A stretch of DNA of 64,000 bases from assembly GCA_000146465.1 (NCBI GenBank), contig CP001950.1; one strand, written 5' to 3'. Position numbers and translations under genes: made by a program. Each line of letters opens with the position of its first letter. The stretch's first letter is position 1. Below, piece by piece: positions 16,655 through 21,363 of this stretch. The notes under the pieces are model-generated. The model worked only from the letters and a program-made list of their open reading frames with translations. It was not told the DNA's origin and did not search any database.

Positions 16655-16909
16655 ATGGTTCCGGAATCTGTCAATAACCTTTACAAAGATCTTGAGTCTG
16701 TGATTCTTCAGTTCAAATCTCCAGCATTTGGAAACTATTTCCTCAAGAAAGCTAAGGAAGAGTTTGATAACATCAGCATCCAAACCTCAAAGCAGAAAGA
16801 TGAAGGGGCGATTGAGAGATATTTGAAAGATCAAGGAGAACTCCTGGATGTTCTTCGAAGACAAACAACCATTTACAACATGTTCTATGACGAGTCAAGT
16901 GGAATATGA
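16655..16909 (+). CDS. ISD11: ISD11/LYRM4 (LYR-motif partner of cysteine desulfurase Nfs1; mitochondrial/mitosomal Fe-S cluster assembly), 84 aa.
   Basis: 'NLYKDLESVILQFKSPAFGNYFLKKAKEEF...LLDVLRRQTTIYNMFY' aligns with yeast Isd11 ('NLYRNCLRLSKSFSDYNFRNYFLRSSRDKF...ELQVLKRQSMISQMY'). LYK/F motif present. Confidence 0.7.
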   Translation: MVPESVNNLYKDLESVILQFKSPAFGNYFLKKAKEEFDNISIQTSKQKDEGAIERYLKDQGELLDVLRRQTTIYNMFYDESSGI

Positions 16910-17115
16910 CAGTTTGGGCGACTTGATTGTTGTTGAATACATGCTATAGGTTTGAAATCCCGTCAAAGTCCTAGGAATATCCATTGATATACCCGAGGGG
17001 AAAATGAAGAGAATTGAAGGAAGGCCATTTCCGAGACTCTGTAGCTTCTTAGCAATAAAGATCTTATCAAGCGATTTTTTGAGAAGGATATTTATAGAGG
17101 GAATTTCTATAGCCC

Positions 17116-18843
17116 ATGGTTCTTGGTAGAATAAAGAAGATGTTCTCAAATACTAAGAAGAATTTATTTGGAGATTTGCATTGCGGAAGAACTATTCTTA
17201 TGAATGGATGCGAAGCATTAGCGTCCCAGGAAGATCTTTTATTCTCATCAAAAAAAAGCAAGATGTCATTCAAGCTGTGTGAGATTGTGTCAATTGAACA
17301 CGATAATAAGACCCTTAGCTTCATTCATAACCAGAAAAAGTATCTCTTTACGAGCGGGGAATCTCTAGATCTTTTCTGTAAGGCTATAGTACCCTTTATA
17401 AAGAAGACCAAGATCCTATACAAAAAAAGTGCGGTGTACTCAAGATACAATACAACTACGGGGAGATTTGAAGAAGCTTCGGGAAACGTAGATGTATTTA
17501 TTGTTGAAGATGGGATGTTTTTGATCAGGATAGAAACAAGAGACGACATTATACATTTTGAAGAGATAAGAACGGAGACACAATACTATATGGATCAGAA
17601 AAACATAACGTTTGTATGGTCTGTGATGGAAGGGGGAGTTTTCCACACGTTTTCGTTGAAGTTTTTGGACAATCTTGATTTTCTTGAGTTTCTCGGCAAG
17701 TACATTGGATGTCTCTATAAGAATGTTAATCACGAAAACAAGGAGGACAAGGAAGCGGAGCAGTATTTTGAAAAAATGGAGATGGAGAACTATCACCCTG
17801 ATGAATCCTCGGAGTCGGAAGAGGAAGAGGAGTATGAAAGTTGTGATGATGATGAGCTTGAAAACCATTTTGGAGAAGCAGACGAAAAGAATAAGCATCT
17901 TGTCGTGGGAGATGAAATGGCTTTTATAACAAGAGGAAAGTCAATAGGGGTGTTTGAAAACACAGATGACGGACTTGAGTTTAGGGCAAATATCAAGAAC
18001 GTTCTGAATGAAGATGTAAAAAAGATAATCACACATGATAATTGTGCTTCGCTCATATACTTAGACAAGAGTGAAAGAGACAAGCTCCATAAGCTGGATG
18101 TAGAAAGAGGAGAGGTTATTGAGACTTGGGATGTGCAAAGGGACGTTAATGATTACTTTGATGCGCAGAAGCTAATTGATACTGGTTCGCTTGTTGGGCT
18201 CTCGGATTATTCGGTGTTCAGGATTGATCCAAGAACAAAGAATAAGGTTGTTGAGTCGAAGGACTACAAGACAAGAAATAATTTCAACTGTGGGATGGCT
18301 ACAAGCCTGGGGCATGTTGTTGCAGCAGGTAAGGGAGGAGACTTGAGACTTTACGATAAGATTGACAAACGGGCAAAGTCTCTTCTTCCAGGATTTGGGG
18401 ATGAAATTAAGTATATAGACGTTACAAGCAATGGAAAACATATTATTTGCACATGCAAGAACTACTTGATGCTCACAACTGTTCCCGGAGACTATAAGCA
18501 ACCTATTGGGAAGGATAAGCCTGTTCCAAAAAGACTTCAGCTAAAGCCAGAGCATTTGGCATACATTAATGAAGAGATAGACTTTACTCCTGCAAAGTTC
18601 AGCACAGACACTTCGGAAAGCAGCATAATAACAAGTACAGGAAGTTATGTTGTTAAGTGGAACTTGGATGATGTGCTTAATGGAAAGCTGTACTCGTACC
18701 AGCTAGCCAAATGCAATGATTTGGTTGTTGCCGACAACTTCGAATTTGGGGAAAACAACAGTGTAATTGTGACAATGCCAGACGACATAAGAAAAGTCAA
18801 CGTCCGAAACCTCAAGAGACCTGGGCGAAAGATATGGGGATGA
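17116..18843 (+). CDS. VID27: Vid27-family protein (vacuolar import and degradation).
   Basis: Central acidic stretch (SESEEEEEYESCDDDE). 'HLVVGDEMAFITRGKSIGVFEN' matches the VID27 signature '...vvGyk.drsfVvRG.kIGVF'. C-terminal beta-propeller-like region. Confidence 0.55.
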   Translation: MVLGRIKKMFSNTKKNLFGDLHCGRTILMNGCEALASQEDLLFSSKKSKMSFKLCEIVSIEHDNKTLSFIHNQKKYLFTSGESLDLFCKAIVPFIKKTKILYKKSAVYSRYNTTTGRFEEASGNVDVFIVEDGMFLIRIETRDDIIHFEEIRTETQYYMDQKNITFVWSVMEGGVFHTFSLKFLDNLDFLEFLGKYIGCLYKNVNHENKEDKEAEQYFEKMEMENYHPDESSESEEEEEYESCDDDELENHFGEADEKNKHLVVGDEMAFITRGKSIGVFENTDDGLEFRANIKNVLNEDVKKIITHDNCASLIYLDKSERDKLHKLDVERGEVIETWDVQRDVNDYFDAQKLIDTGSLVGLSDYSVFRIDPRTKNKVVESKDYKTRNNFNCGMATSLGHVVAAGKGGDLRLYDKIDKRAKSLLPGFGDEIKYIDVTSNGKHIICTCKNYLMLTTVPGDYKQPIGKDKPVPKRLQLKPEHLAYINEEIDFTPAKFSTDTSESSIITSTGSYVVKWNLDDVLNGKLYSYQLAKCNDLVVADNFEFGENNSVIVTMPDDIRKVNVRNLKRPGRKIWG

Positions 18844-18903
18844 TTGTGTATTTATGCTATTAAATAAATGTGTTTTTGAACATTTCTATTTCAAAAGAAT
18901 GAT

Positions 18904-20082
18904 ATGCAGCCCCGAGCTATGGACTTTAATCCTGTTCGATTTGAATACAATAAGAATTACACAAAGAGTATAGCAAGCATATTTAGTAGGGTTGAAATAA
19001 TTTCTACAGATACAGACAGCTCTAGCCGAAAGTTTGTTTTTCCTTCCATTGGAAGCATTAAGTATTGCAAAGCCAGAATAGTAGAGACAGAAAGACTCGA
19101 GACCTCCTGGAGAGAGGTTTATCGTATAAAATTCGATAAGAAGTTTGATTTTAAGCCTGGAGATTCCATTGGAATATTGTGTCCAAACAATGATGCTTTG
19201 GTCGACGAAATAATGAAGATTCTCTGTCTCAAAGATTTTAGCTGCCAAATGAGTAGAACGGGCAAGAACTCCTTCAATTACACTGGAAGAATTAGAGACT
19301 TCTTTAAGTACTACTTCGACTTCGGGGGTCTTCCAAGAAAATCCTTATTAATCAATCTAGCTAGAAGTTGCACGGAAGAAAATCAAAAATATATTGAATA
19401 TCTCTGTTCAAGAGAAGGTATTGCAGACTATCTTGGAATAGGGAAAAGATGGAATAACATTCTTGATATTATAAGGACCTTTAAATGCAAGCCCACCCTG
19501 GAGGAAATTATAGGAGAATGTGAGATTGTAAAGCCTAGGTACTTTTCTCTTATAAATGAAATTGGGAAGGAATCCGAAATTCTTATTGGAATAACAAACA
19601 AGATCTTTAATGAGTTTGTAAGATATGGTCATGTCTCAGACTTTATAATTCAATCGGAGGCCGAAGAGATTGAAGCATGTTTAAGAACAAATCTTCTCTT
19701 CAGAATGGATTACAATAGAAGGCGGATCCTGGCAATATGCACAGGGACAGGAATAGCTCCTTTTCTATCTTTTGTGGCAAATCTTCAATCACACCAAAGT
19801 ATTTGGATCATATATGGGTTTAGGAACGATGAAGATGATATTTCTAAATTGATGAAGTCTGGGGAAAAGATAAAAATATCCAGAGTTAAGTCTAGCGACG
19901 GACACTATGTCACCGATTACTTAGTGGAGAAGATTGATGAGATAAAGGAATATATTGATGAGGAATGTGCAGTCTATGCATGCGGGAAGATGGAAATGCA
20001 GAGGAAAGTGTTTGAAATATTCAAAAATGAGCATCCCGAGATTGTAGAGTCCAAGCGATTGATCTTCGACCAATGGGGCTAA
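18904..20082 (+). CDS. FAD/NAD(P)H-binding oxidoreductase of the CPR/Tah18 (diflavin reductase) type, without the N-terminal FMN/flavodoxin domain.
   Basis: FAD-binding 'PRYFSLINE' (R-x-Y-S type) and 'GDSIGILCPN'. NAD(P)-binding 'ILAICTGTGIAPFLSF'. The protein starts directly in the FAD domain. Confidence 0.6.
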   Translation: MQPRAMDFNPVRFEYNKNYTKSIASIFSRVEIISTDTDSSSRKFVFPSIGSIKYCKARIVETERLETSWREVYRIKFDKKFDFKPGDSIGILCPNNDALVDEIMKILCLKDFSCQMSRTGKNSFNYTGRIRDFFKYYFDFGGLPRKSLLINLARSCTEENQKYIEYLCSREGIADYLGIGKRWNNILDIIRTFKCKPTLEEIIGECEIVKPRYFSLINEIGKESEILIGITNKIFNEFVRYGHVSDFIIQSEAEEIEACLRTNLLFRMDYNRRRILAICTGTGIAPFLSFVANLQSHQSIWIIYGFRNDEDDISKLMKSGEKIKISRVKSSDGHYVTDYLVEKIDEIKEYIDEECAVYACGKMEMQRKVFEIFKNEHPEIVESKRLIFDQWG

Positions 20083-20127: not shown

Positions 20128-21363
20128 TTATTTACTTGTGAATGGGAATTCGACAGGTTTTAGAATCAGGCCTATGAGTATTGCAAAAATGAAGATAGCA
20201 ATAGGAAGCGTCATATGAAGGATATTGTATCTTCCGGACATTCTATGTACTCCAACAAAACCATCAAAAGAGGAGAAATAAACCGATTCGTTCATAAACC
20301 CTACTCCCGTTATTGGAACATTGTAAACTTTTTTTCTCCCACTTAGAACACATTTGTTGAATAGGTAGATGTAACCATCTGCGGTTCCAACAACCGTCCA
20401 CTGGCCTTCACACGACATTGTTGTGATTTTTGGGATGCTGTAGATCTTTTCGTGCACCTCCTGAAAGTACAGCTTGGAATCCTTTCCCTTTAAGTAATAA
20501 ACAAGCATTTCATTGTTGTGAGCTATTCTCCCAATCTCCTTTTCATAGGAATACTTTTTGGAATTGTATACAAAAGTGTATCCTCCATCTTCGTAAACAA
20601 TCTTATGGACTAATCCTCTAGTTATGAAAAATCCTTCCCAGTTGTTAGCTATGTCAGACTTTCCTTCCTCTCTCTTGAAAATAATCCTTCTATCCTTCCT
20701 GAAAGGTCTGTATGTATACTCTTCATGAGACTCATCATTGAGCAAGGATCCATTTACTTTTTTTCTTTTCCTTTCAGGTTTCAGCACCTCATCTAATGAA
20801 TCTGGAGAACTTACCACATCATGGAATCCATACAGCTTTTTATCACTAATGATATATAAATCCTTGGCAAATACTTGGGAAGATATCTTTTTCTTTACTC
20901 TTTTGATAAGCGTGAGATTGCTGCCATCAAATATTAACAAGTAGAAGAATTCTTCCCCTAGGGCAGTAATATAAAGTTTCGAACAATCATCTTCTGTTTT
21001 GTTTTTTGTGTCTTTGTTATCTGGAACCAAGTCTTTACAACCTGAATTATCTTCCGAAGAGTCCTTATTGCTGGCACCTTCTATATCCTCTGAACTCCGA
21101 GCAGAGGAAGAAAGGCTTGCCTCATCATATTCATCCCATGACATATCATCCTCTCCTACCTGAAGAAATTCATCTTTGGTGTTGCAGACCGCTATATCCA
21201 CAATAATTTCGTCTGTTGAATAATAGGCCAGCTCTTTGAAGCGAAAACTCTCCAGAACCTTAACTCCATTGGACTTTCCAAATTCCTTTTCTCCCCCTCC
21301 TCCTCCTACAATAACAAATTCTCCCTTTACTTGCAATGTGAATACAGGAAAAGAAACCTTCAT
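20128..21363 (-). CDS. SEC12: Sec12/PREB-type Sar1 guanine-nucleotide exchange factor (type II ER membrane protein).
   Basis: N-terminus 'PVFTLQVKGEFVIVGGGGGEKEFGKSNGVKVLESF' compared with human PREB '[33 protein letters not shown]'. WD-like body. C-terminal TM anchor 'LPIAIFIFAILIGLIL'. Confidence 0.7.
   Translation of the reverse strand: MKVSFPVFTLQVKGEFVIVGGGGGEKEFGKSNGVKVLESFRFKELAYYSTDEIIVDIAVCNTKDEFLQVGEDDMSWDEYDEASLSSSARSSEDIEGASNKDSSEDNSGCKDLVPDNKDTKNKTEDDCSKLYITALGEEFFYLLIFDGSNLTLIKRVKKKISSQVFAKDLYIISDKKLYGFHDVVSSPDSLDEVLKPERKRKKVNGSLLNDESHEEYTYRPFRKDRRIIFKREEGKSDIANNWEGFFITRGLVHKIVYEDGGYTFVYNSKKYSYEKEIGRIAHNNEMLVYYLKGKDSKLYFQEVHEKIYSIPKITTMSCEGQWTVVGTADGYIYLFNKCVLSGRKKVYNVPITGVGFMNESVYFSSFDGFVGVHRMSGRYNILHMTLPIAIFIFAILIGLILKPVEFPFTSK

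What the first reader, a model, noticed from the sequence alone, without database searches (positions are those of the whole stretch)
18904..20082. CPR/Tah18-type FAD-NADPH reductase lacking its FMN (flavodoxin) domain
The protein begins directly in the FAD-binding domain ('GDSIGILCPN', 'PRYFSL') and ends with the NAD(P)-binding 'ILAICTGTGIAPF'. Known diflavin reductases (Tah18/NDOR1, CPR, MTRR) carry an N-terminal flavodoxin domain that delivers electrons to the partner, for example Dre2. Three readings are possible: a truncated Tah18 whose FMN module is encoded elsewhere as a split gene; a ferredoxin-reductase-like enzyme; or a mis-set start.
Basis: partly seen in the sequence, partly recalled or inferred. 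Interest (0 to 1): 0.5.

Follow-up and report, generated by a model that had tools for sequence, protein, structure and literature searches.

The report
Stand-alone FAD/NAD(P)H reductase, not Tah18
This Encephalitozoon intestinalis gene encodes a conserved reductase that really does lack the usual FMN (flavodoxin) domain, but it is not a broken Tah18: the parasite has a complete Tah18 elsewhere, and this is a second enzyme, closest to methionine synthase reductase, whose electron acceptor is unknown.

Summary
ORF 18904-20082 (+) carries FAD_binding_1 and NAD_binding_1 above Pfam cut-offs and no flavodoxin domain. The true start is probably ATG 18919.

The Tah18 reading fails. The window is E. 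intestinalis ATCC 50506, and that genome encodes a separate 508-aa Tah18 with an intact Flavodoxin_1 domain, already described by Freibert et al. 2017.

The window protein belongs to a family of about 70 FMN-less sequences of mostly 340-500 aa. It spans Microsporidia, including Nematocida, and forms a 100%-bootstrap clade outside the Tah18 clade.

A mis-set start or split gene is excluded:
- an in-frame stop lies 27 nt upstream;
- the intergenic gap is 60 nt;
- no flavodoxin-like ORF occurs in the 64 kb window or next to the orthologues in three other genera.

The residues for FAD binding and hydride transfer are invariant, and the AF2 model is confident. The closest characterised relative, by a modest margin, is the FNR-like module of human methionine synthase reductase. 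Microsporidia are reported to lack MetH.

The Arg that binds the NADPH 2'-phosphate is lost in classical microsporidia. The function is best read as NAD(P)H to FAD to a separately encoded acceptor that remains unidentified. Interest is modest: this is a new variant of a known kind.

The parts
18919..20082 (+). Most likely coding sequence (387 aa plus stop) of the FMN-less FAD/NAD(P)H reductase. It equals GenBank ADM12301.1, annotated 'sulfite reductase subunit alpha'.
   Evidence: 100% identity to P0001. Orthologues start at the equivalent Met. A CCCC motif lies just upstream of this ATG.
18904..18918 (+). Five extra codons (MQPRA) of the longest ORF. They are probably 5' flank or promoter, and they contain the CCC-like start-site motif at 18910-18913.
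   Evidence: [quoted passage not shown]
18877..18879 (+). In-frame TGA stop that closes the reading frame 27 nt upstream of ATG 18904. The upstream VID27 gene ends at 18843.
   Evidence: Pfam VID27 for 17116-18843.
19060..19554 (+). FAD-binding plus connecting domain (Pfam FAD_binding_1). It includes PGDSIGILCPN (19156-19188) and the R-x-Y/F-S FAD motif KPRYFSL (19531-19551).
   Evidence: Invariant residues. Coordinates.
19627..19638 (+). GHVS, the G-x-x-S/T FAD-pyrophosphate motif. The His is specific to the microsporidian family.
19735..20010 (+). NAD(P)H-binding domain (Pfam NAD_binding_1). It contains CTGTGIAPF (19738-19764), YGFR (19813-19824) and the catalytic Cys in YACG (19975-19986). 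It also contains KSSDGHYVTD (19888-19917), where the usual 2'-phosphate-binding Ser-Arg is Ser-Ser.
20065..20079 (+). C-terminal FDQWG: Asp and the FAD-stacking Trp in the D-x-W-x pattern of CPR and MTRR. Tah18 ends in E-T-W and CysJ in D-V-Y.

Best explanation
The gene encodes a catalytically intact, stand-alone NAD(P)H:FAD dehydrogenase. It corresponds to the connecting, FAD and NAD(P)H domains (the 'FNR-like module') of a diflavin reductase. It is a paralogue of Tah18, conserved across Microsporidia, that lost its FMN domain in or before the common ancestor of Nematocida and the classical microsporidia. Among characterised enzymes it is closest to methionine synthase reductase (MTRR). Shown: the domain content, the conserved cofactor and hydride-transfer residues, the confident fold, its separation from Tah18, and the absence of any nearby FMN module. 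Inferred: hydride passes from NAD(P)H to FAD, and electrons then leave one at a time to a separately encoded carrier. That carrier would dock in the cleft between the FAD and connecting domains, where the FMN domain sits in full-length relatives. This would work like bacterial Fpr with flavodoxin, or yeast Met10 with the FMN domain of Met5. The acceptor is not identified. Because Microsporidia are reported to lack MetH, it cannot be cobalamin-dependent methionine synthase. Candidates are a small Fe-S or iron protein or an FMN domain in trans (Dre2, the Tah18 FMN domain, Dph3, Tyw1). Loss of the 2'-phosphate-binding Arg suggests relaxed or altered NADPH/NADH preference.
For: Domains are FAD_binding_1 and NAD_binding_1 only. 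The organism and orthologues were identified: mostly 340-500 aa and FMN-less, in Encephalitozoon, Ordospora, Nosema, Pancytospora, Astathelohania, Conglomerata, Gurleya, Tubulinosema, Edhazardia and Nematocida. The residues equivalent to CPR Ser457, Cys630, Asp675 and Trp677, plus R-x-Y-S and GTGxAPF, are invariant or nearly so in 61 family members. The AF2 model has pLDDT 91.7, and its top Foldseek hit is the FNR-like module of human MSR, 2qtz (TM 0.78). The family profile against the PDB scores MSR at 111 bits, NOS at 99, and CysJ and CPR at 95. Nematocida P0201 alone hits only MSR at E<=1e-12. In the exhaustive search, the only two named non-microsporidian hits near the top (P0222, P0226) are both called methionine synthase reductase. 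The family and the Nematocida sequences form a 100% clade, and Tah18 forms a separate 93% clade. A complete Tah18 (P0060, with Flavodoxin_1) and Dre2 exist in the same genome. There is an in-frame stop 27 nt upstream, and no flavodoxin-like ORF in six frames of the window. No flavodoxin gene neighbours the orthologues in Ordospora, Nematocida or Nosema. Microsporidia (one genome analysed) have no MetH, MCM or RNR-II (PMC2667541 Table 7).
Against: The MTRR affinity rests on score margins of about 12 bits and on automatic names. The NJ tree does not resolve where the long microsporidian branch attaches, and no ML phylogeny with curated CPR, NOS or Met10 sequences could be run. No acceptor was identified. 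I could not search a whole microsporidian proteome for flavodoxin, Tyw1, Dph3, Cbr1 or MetH. The Ser-Arg to Ser-Ser change at the 2'-phosphate site could mean weakened nucleotide binding rather than a change of specificity. There are no expression or biochemical data.
Confidence: 0.65

Rival explanations
1. Truncated or split Tah18: this ORF is the FAD/NADPH half of the CIA reductase, with its FMN half encoded elsewhere, and it feeds Dre2.
For: It belongs to the same superfamily as Tah18, with 22% identity to the E. intestinalis Tah18 FAD/NADPH region. Dre2 is present in the genome.
Against: A complete 508-aa Tah18 with Flavodoxin_1 (E 1e-23), FAD_binding_1 and NAD_binding_1 exists in the same genome, and it groups with fungal and animal NDOR1. 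The window family lies outside that 93% clade. It has Cys and D-x-W where Tah18 has Ser/Ala and E-T-W. The family profile scores Tah18 sequences lowest (median 75-81 bits, against 123-165 for the listed MTRR-like and other non-microsporidian hits).
Confidence: 0.03
2. Annotation artefact: the real gene has an upstream exon or an earlier start that encodes a flavodoxin domain.
For: None beyond the general expectation that relatives carry an FMN domain.
Against: An in-frame TGA lies 27 nt upstream, and only 60 nt separate the ORF from the VID27 stop. A flavodoxin HMM finds nothing in any frame of the 64 kb window. Mostly 340-500-aa FMN-less orthologues with matching N-termini occur in about 70 sequences. 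The neighbourhoods in three other genera contain no flavodoxin gene.
Confidence: 0.02
3. Redox-dead relic: a leftover of MTRR retained for a structural or chaperone role rather than for electron transfer.
For: The presumed ancestral partner MetH is absent from Microsporidia. The conserved 2'-phosphate Arg is lost in classical microsporidia. Human MTRR without its FMN domain still binds MTR (bioRxiv 10.1101/2025.11.10.687659), which shows that the module has non-catalytic contacts.
Against: All hydride-transfer and FAD-binding residues (Ser, Cys, Asp, the stacking Trp, R-x-Y-S, GTGxAP) are invariant across a very fast-evolving phylum. That pattern is what selection on catalysis produces.
Confidence: 0.1
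4. Sulfite reductase flavoprotein (CysJ/Met10), as named in GenBank, or a genuine NADPH-cytochrome P450 reductase.
For: Product names in several records say so. With the single sequence, the best PDB hit is the CysJ FAD fragment 1ddg (E 4.7e-11).
Against: With the family profile, MSR outranks CysJ and CPR. The C-terminus is D-x-W, not the CysJ D-V-Y. There is no FMN domain and no membrane anchor. From general knowledge of the group, not tested here, Microsporidia have no sulfate assimilation and no P450s.
Confidence: 0.05
5. Ferredoxin reductase for the mitosomal [2Fe-2S] ferredoxin (plant-type FNR role).
For: The FNR superfamily fold is present, with weak matches to plant and apicoplast FNRs over the NAD(P)H half.
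Against: Microsporidia already have Arh1 for Yah1 (Freibert 2017). The protein carries the diflavin-type connecting domain, and FNR matches are 50-70 bits weaker and cover only positions 204-372. No targeting evidence exists.
Confidence: 0.05

Closest known systems
Methionine synthase reductase (MTRR/MSR), FNR-like module (PDB 2qtl/2qtz)
   Same: It is the best sequence match, both for the family profile and for the Nematocida member, and it is the top structural match. It shares the connecting, FAD and NADPH architecture, the catalytic Cys, and a C-terminal ...KR-x-x-x-D-x-W-x tail.
   Different: The window protein has no FMN domain and no long hinge. The cognate MetH is reported absent from Microsporidia. 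The 2'-phosphate Arg is replaced in classical microsporidia. Phylogenetic placement inside MTRR is not resolved.
FMN-less 'methionine synthase reductase' proteins of insects (e.g. Ceutorhynchus P0222, Exocentrus P0238, Epargyreus P0246) and two unnamed FMN-less clades (P0241 group, P0242 group)
   Same: They share the two-domain architecture (FAD_binding_1 plus NAD_binding_1 only, 408-471 aa for the proteins scanned). They are MTRR-like by PDB score. The insect examples also come from a group reported to lack MetH.
   Different: These proteins are much less diverged (220-228 bits to human MSR) and keep the Ser-Arg 2'-phosphate site. They do not group specifically with the microsporidian clade. 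Their function is equally unknown.
Tah18/NDOR1 (CIA diflavin reductase)
   Same: It is in the same superfamily and is present in the same genome. It is an NADPH to FAD electron source for Fe-S biogenesis.
   Different: Tah18 has the FMN domain, forms a separate clade, ends in E-T-W, and has Ser/Ala at the catalytic Cys position.
Two-component systems: E. coli Fpr plus flavodoxin; yeast sulfite reductase Met10 (FAD/NADPH) plus the Met5 FMN domain
   Same: These are working precedents for an FAD/NAD(P)H module that hands electrons to an FMN domain or protein encoded separately. This is established knowledge. The yeast flavoproteome paper lists Flavodoxin_1 and FAD_binding_1 under its single sulphite-reductase entry (PMC3991850).
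   Different: No separate flavodoxin partner has been identified for the microsporidian protein. Fpr lacks the connecting domain. Met10 carries an extra N-terminal domain.

Membership tests
Tah18/NDOR1 | N-terminal Flavodoxin_1 (FMN) domain | tested here: not met
   No Flavodoxin_1 hit at E<=1. The custom flavodoxin HMM is negative.
Tah18/NDOR1 | Groups with the Tah18/NDOR1 clade in a tree of FAD/NADPH modules | tested here: not met
   The Tah18 clade has 93% bootstrap and the window family lies in a separate 100% clade.
Tah18/NDOR1 | Signature residues: C-terminal E-T-W, and Ser/Ala at the CPR Cys630 position | tested here: not met
   The family has D-x-W and an invariant Cys.
Tah18/NDOR1 | Is the genome's Tah18 orthologue (no other candidate) | tested here: not met
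   P0060 (508 aa, all three domains, 99% identical to the Tah18_Enc_int sequence reconstructed from Freibert 2017) is the orthologue.
Tah18/NDOR1 | Binds and reduces Dre2 | not testable with these tools
   This needs biochemistry or complex modelling.
Diflavin-reductase FNR-like module (FAD_binding_1 + NAD_binding_1) | Both Pfam domains above the gathering cut-off | tested here: met
   58.5 bits against 32.3, and 38.2 bits against 22.
Diflavin-reductase FNR-like module (FAD_binding_1 + NAD_binding_1) | R-x-Y-S/T, G-x-x-S/T, GTGxAPF, catalytic Cys, and C-terminal Asp-x-aromatic | tested here: met
   KPRYFSL, GHVS, CTGTGIAPF, YACG and FDQWG are present and invariant in the family.
Diflavin-reductase FNR-like module (FAD_binding_1 + NAD_binding_1) | Fold with connecting domain | tested here: met
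   AF2 pLDDT is 91.7. Foldseek gives TM 0.69-0.79 to MSR, CPR, NOS and CysJ modules.
Diflavin reductase (complete) | Two flavins: FMN domain fused to the FAD module | tested here: not met
Methionine synthase reductase (MTRR) | Closest similarity to MTRR among characterised subfamilies | tested here: met
   The profile scores MSR at 111 bits against 99 or less for the others. P0201 hits MSR only. The margin is modest.
Methionine synthase reductase (MTRR) | Placement inside an MTRR clade | tested here: inconclusive
   The NJ backbone is unresolved (bootstraps under 30), and the microsporidian branch is long.
Methionine synthase reductase (MTRR) | FMN domain joined by a long hinge | tested here: not met
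   Compare P0251, which has the FMN domain at residues 10-142 and the FAD domain from residue 361.
Methionine synthase reductase (MTRR) | Cobalamin-dependent methionine synthase (MetH/MTR) present as partner | not testable with these tools
   No whole-genome search was possible. The literature reports no MetH in the one microsporidian genome analysed (PMC2667541 Table 7).
Methionine synthase reductase (MTRR) | NADPH 2'-phosphate site Ser-Arg | tested here: not met
   Ser-Ser in E. intestinalis; Ser/Ala/Cys at the Arg position in 54 of 61 family members; Arg in all reference groups.
Plant-type FNR / Fpr | Two-domain enzyme without a connecting domain, with best matches to FNRs | tested here: not met
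   FAD_binding_1 with the connecting domain is present. FNR hits score only 39-52 bits over profile positions 204-372.
CysJ/Met10 sulfite reductase flavoprotein (GenBank name) | C-terminal D-V-Y, and best match to CysJ | tested here: not met
   The family ends in D-x-W. CysJ scores 95 bits against 111 for MSR with the profile.

The most novel reading that the evidence does not exclude
After MetH was lost, the FAD/NAD(P)H module of MTRR was kept, stripped of its FMN domain and repurposed. In this reading it became a dedicated stand-alone electron source for an essential non-cobalamin acceptor in one of the smallest eukaryotic genomes. Possible acceptors are the Dph3/Elp3/Dph1-2 radical-SAM branch, Dre2, or an NADH-reoxidising route, given the lost 2'-phosphate Arg. 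A parallel FMN loss occurred in MetH-less insects. This would define a previously unrecognised, widespread 'MTRR-ΔFMN' reductase class with a B12-independent function.
Probability: 0.2. Interest if true: 0.6.

Novelty: new variant of a known kind. Interest (0 to 1): 0.35.

Why it matters
The finding corrects a tempting misreading. Microsporidian cytosolic Fe-S assembly does not run on an FMN-less Tah18, because the canonical Tah18-Dre2 pair is intact. What remains is an orphan redox enzyme that is clearly under selection. It is retained in genomes of about 1,800 genes, in organisms reported to lack the only known client of its closest relative, MTRR. Identifying its acceptor would fill a gap in the very small redox network of these parasites. 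It could also explain why FMN-less MTRR-like genes persist in other MetH-less lineages. In addition, the database names for both paralogues (sulfite reductase alpha, P450 reductase, nitric-oxide synthase) are misleading and should be revised.

Tried and rejected
- **Literature.** These searches covered microsporidia with Tah18/Dre2, P450 reductase, flavodoxin, MTRR, TYW1 and wybutosine, methionine synthase, and FMN-less diflavin reductases. No paper discusses this FMN-less protein, and one search returned only irrelevant hits.
- **Orlowska et al. 2021 supplements.** They contain no microsporidian names.
- **Freibert et al. Supplementary Table 1.** Presence and absence are encoded as cell colours, which are lost in the text, so it could not tell me whether Tyw1 or Dph proteins are present.
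- **Foldseek against afdb50.** The library was unavailable.
- **MAFFT L-INS-i on 208 sequences.** It timed out, so --auto was used instead.
- **Tree building.** No ML tree program is installed, so only NJ with Scoredist-type distances and 100 bootstraps was possible. This does not resolve the deep attachment of the family.
- **Last homology search, with Nematocida P0201.** It found only Nematocida relatives, so the state in Rozella, Paramicrosporidium, Mitosporidium and metchnikovellids is unknown.
- **Horizontal transfer from insects.** I considered and rejected this: the microsporidian clade shows no specific affinity to the insect FMN-less group.
- **Bacterial CysJ origin.** This was suggested by the word-filtered hits. 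I rejected it because the exhaustive search ranks eukaryotic MTRR-like proteins higher.
Full report
**Identity of the window and the ORF**

The window has about 38% G+C and tightly packed intron-less ORFs on both strands. The translated ORF 18904-20082 is 100% identical to ADM12301.1 of Encephalitozoon intestinalis ATCC 50506. That record is annotated 'sulfite reductase subunit alpha' and is 387 aa long.

Pfam finds FAD_binding_1 at residues 53-217 (E 9e-16) and NAD_binding_1 at residues 278-369 (E 2.5e-9). Both are above their gathering cut-offs. No flavodoxin domain appears even at E<=1.

**Start codon and the 'missing exon' question**

- The frame is closed by a TGA 27 nt upstream of ATG 18904.
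- The preceding gene, VID27 (17116-18843), ends 60 nt upstream.
- I built a flavodoxin HMM from the N-termini of 100+ Tah18 and CysJ proteins. It finds nothing in any of 620 six-frame ORF segments of the 64 kb window.
- GenBank and all orthologues start at the second ATG, 18919 (MDFNPV...).
- A CCCC motif lies 5-9 nt upstream of that ATG, and the ATG is followed by G and A at +4 and +5. This matches the CCC-like start-site signal, the sub-7-nt 5'UTRs and the Kozak bias described for Encephalitozoon (PMC2803860).

The true protein is therefore probably 387 aa. The start is mis-set, if at all, by 15 nt in the short direction.

**It is not Tah18**

Freibert et al. 2017 (PMC5216125) identified Tah18 and Dre2 in E. 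cuniculi and T. hominis. Their Supplementary Fig. 1i and 1j also align the E. intestinalis Dre2 and Tah18 sequences. That Tah18 begins MIPILYGSQTGTSIYVS, carries the FMN motifs, and ends ...FQSETW. It is a different protein from the window ORF.

I reconstructed it from the figure and searched with it. The search returned P0060, 'NADPH cytochrome P450 reductase [E. intestinalis ATCC 50506]', 508 aa and 99% identical. Its Pfam hits are Flavodoxin_1 (E 1e-23), FAD_binding_1 and NAD_binding_1. Its nearest non-microsporidian relatives are fungal and animal NDOR1/Tah18.

P0060 is not encoded in this window. By tblastn it matches only the window ORF, at 22% identity over the FAD/NADPH part. The genome therefore has a complete Tah18, and the window gene is a second, distant paralogue.

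**A conserved FMN-less family**

Homology searches recover orthologues in Encephalitozoon spp., Ordospora, Nosema granulosis, Pancytospora, Astathelohania, Conglomerata, Gurleya, Tubulinosema, Edhazardia and many unnamed assemblies. Most are 340-500 aa long, apart from a few longer proteins and fragments.

Nematocida species carry 420-500 aa homologues, some of them annotated 'methionine synthase reductase'. None has a flavodoxin domain.

In an NJ tree of 208 FAD/NADPH modules (335 columns, 100 bootstraps):
- these 73 sequences form a clade with 100% support;
- Tah18 from microsporidia, fungi and animals forms a separate clade with 93% support;
- the rest of the backbone is unresolved.

The gene neighbourhoods differ in how far synteny is kept. 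Ordospora is syntenic (Nuf2-ISD11-YIF1-VID27-gene-x-CDC73-PFU), Nosema granulosis is partly syntenic, and Nematocida sp. ERTm5 is not syntenic. None contains a flavodoxin gene.

The FMN-less architecture is thus ancestral for the phylum as sampled. It is neither a truncation nor an adjacent split gene.

**Catalytic competence**

Across 61 classical microsporidian members, the following are invariant or nearly so (positions in P0001 numbering):

| Feature | Residues | Equivalent in CPR |
|---|---|---|
| FAD motif | R207-x-(Y/F)-S/T210 | Ser457 |
| FAD pyrophosphate motif | G237-H-x-S240 | |
| Nucleotide-binding motif | G276-T-G278-x-A-P-F | |
| Conserved block | Y299-G-x-R302 | |
| Catalytic Cys | C355-G | Cys630 |
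| C-terminal Asp and stacking Trp | D384-x-W386 | Asp675 and Trp677 |

An AlphaFold2 model built on the 24-sequence alignment is confident, with mean pLDDT 91.7 and pTM 0.86. Its best Foldseek matches are the FNR-like modules of human MSR (2qtz, TM 0.78), CPR, nNOS and CysJ.

There is one systematic deviation. The Ser-Arg pair that binds the NADPH 2'-phosphate has Arg in every reference group. In this family the pair is Ser-Ser in E. intestinalis, and the Arg position is Ser/Ala/Cys in 54 of 61 family members. In Nematocida the Arg position is Arg or Gln. I infer a relaxed or altered nucleotide preference. This is not shown.

**Which subfamily?**

| Query | Best match | Next best |
|---|---|---|
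| Window protein, single sequence, vs PDB | CysJ FAD fragment (E 4.7e-11) | MSR (1e-9) |
| Family profile vs PDB | Human MSR 2qtl, 111 bits | nNOS 99; CysJ 95; CPR 95; FNRs 52 or less |
| Nematocida P0201, phmmer vs PDB | MSR only, at E<=1e-12 | none |

In the exhaustive profile search of 1.84 billion representatives, the top non-microsporidian hits score 123-165 bits. The only two of these for which I obtained a name near the top (P0222, P0226) are both called methionine synthase reductase. Several others have the MTRR architecture of an N-terminal FMN domain followed by a long hinge. By contrast, Tah18 sequences score a median of 75-81 bits and bacterial CysJ-like proteins about 99 bits.

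The family's C-terminal ...(E/D)KR-x-F-F-D-x-W-x also resembles the ...KRYLQD(I/V)W(S/T) tail of the MTRR-like hits. I therefore call it MTRR-like. The margin is modest and the tree does not place the long branch.

**Context that shapes function**

A comparative study found no MetH, MCM or class II RNR in the one microsporidian genome analysed, nor in 19 insects (PMC2667541 Table 7). The known client of MTRR is thus reported absent.

The exhaustive search also revealed FMN-less, clearly MTRR-type proteins in other lineages:
- beetles (P0222, with 220 bits to MSR against 188 to CPR; P0238);
- a butterfly (P0246);
- at least two unnamed clades (for example P0241, with 228 bits against 171).

Loss of the FMN domain from MTRR-like genes has therefore happened more than once. 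At least the insect examples come from a group reported to lack MetH. This is a correlation I did not follow further.

**Mechanism**

Shown: a stand-alone FAD/NAD(P)H module with an intact hydride-transfer site and a retained connecting domain.

Inferred: NAD(P)H reduces FAD, and electrons leave singly to a separately encoded carrier. That carrier would dock where the FMN domain docks in full-length relatives. Precedents are Fpr with flavodoxin, and Met10 with the FMN domain of Met5 (established knowledge).

Candidate acceptors in a microsporidian cytosol:
- Dre2;
- the Tah18 FMN domain;
- the iron protein Dph3, which serves Dph1/2 and Elp3 (Elp3 is present in microsporidia);
- the flavodoxin domain of Tyw1, whose external donor is unknown even in yeast.

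I could not test whether Tyw1, Dph3 or Cbr1 are present in Encephalitozoon. The acceptor is therefore undetermined.

**Verdict**

The gene is an annotated but uncharacterised, phylum-wide, FMN-less, MTRR-like reductase. It is a new variant of a known kind rather than a new kind of system. Its main value is as an orphan redox enzyme in a minimal genome, and as a correction to misleading database names.

Noticed in passing
window 16655-16909 (+): An 84-aa ORF with an N-terminal L-Y-K motif. It hits Pfam PF23511 at 27.5 bits, just under the cut-off of 31.3. The syntenic 84-aa Ordospora gene is labelled PF23511:ISD11. [quoted passage not shown]
   Followed up: partly
window 16909-17116, compared with L001 5219-5839 and L003 4013-4630: Ordospora has a YIF1 gene between ISD11 and VID27, and Nosema granulosis has one just upstream of its VID27-like gene. 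In E. intestinalis only 207 nt separate ISD11 and VID27, so YIF1 has moved or been lost from this position.
   Followed up: no
proteins P0222, P0238, P0246 (insects); P0241 and P0242 groups (unnamed): These are clearly MTRR-type proteins of 408-471 aa with no FMN domain, from beetles, a butterfly and two unidentified clades. Insects are reported to lack MetH. This points to repeated FMN-domain loss from MTRR-like genes, of unknown function.
   Followed up: partly
P0060 and other microsporidian Tah18 proteins (not in the window): The NADPH-binding motif of microsporidian Tah18 reads GTGITLP instead of GTGxAPF. Most of these proteins have no detectable Pfam NAD_binding_1 hit, although the 2'-phosphate Ser-Arg is kept. 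The genuine Tah18 has a divergent nucleotide site.
   Followed up: no
window 18904-20082 and database records: Product names for this family are inconsistent across species: sulfite reductase subunit alpha, NADPH cytochrome P450 reductase, methionine synthase reductase, oxidoreductase. The true Tah18 is named P450 reductase, nitric-oxide synthase or flavodoxin.
   Followed up: yes
window 20128-21363 (-): A 411-aa ORF immediately downstream on the opposite strand has no Pfam hit. It has a hydrophobic C-terminal segment. A syntenic 422-aa gene in Ordospora also has no Pfam hit. This is a conserved uncharacterised gene.
   Followed up: no
P0032 (Edhazardia, 613 aa), P0030 (624 aa), P0217/P0221 (574/617 aa): Some family members are 200 aa or more longer than the rest and match the profile in several separate stretches. 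No flavodoxin domain was detected in them. The extra length probably comes from insertions.
   Followed up: partly
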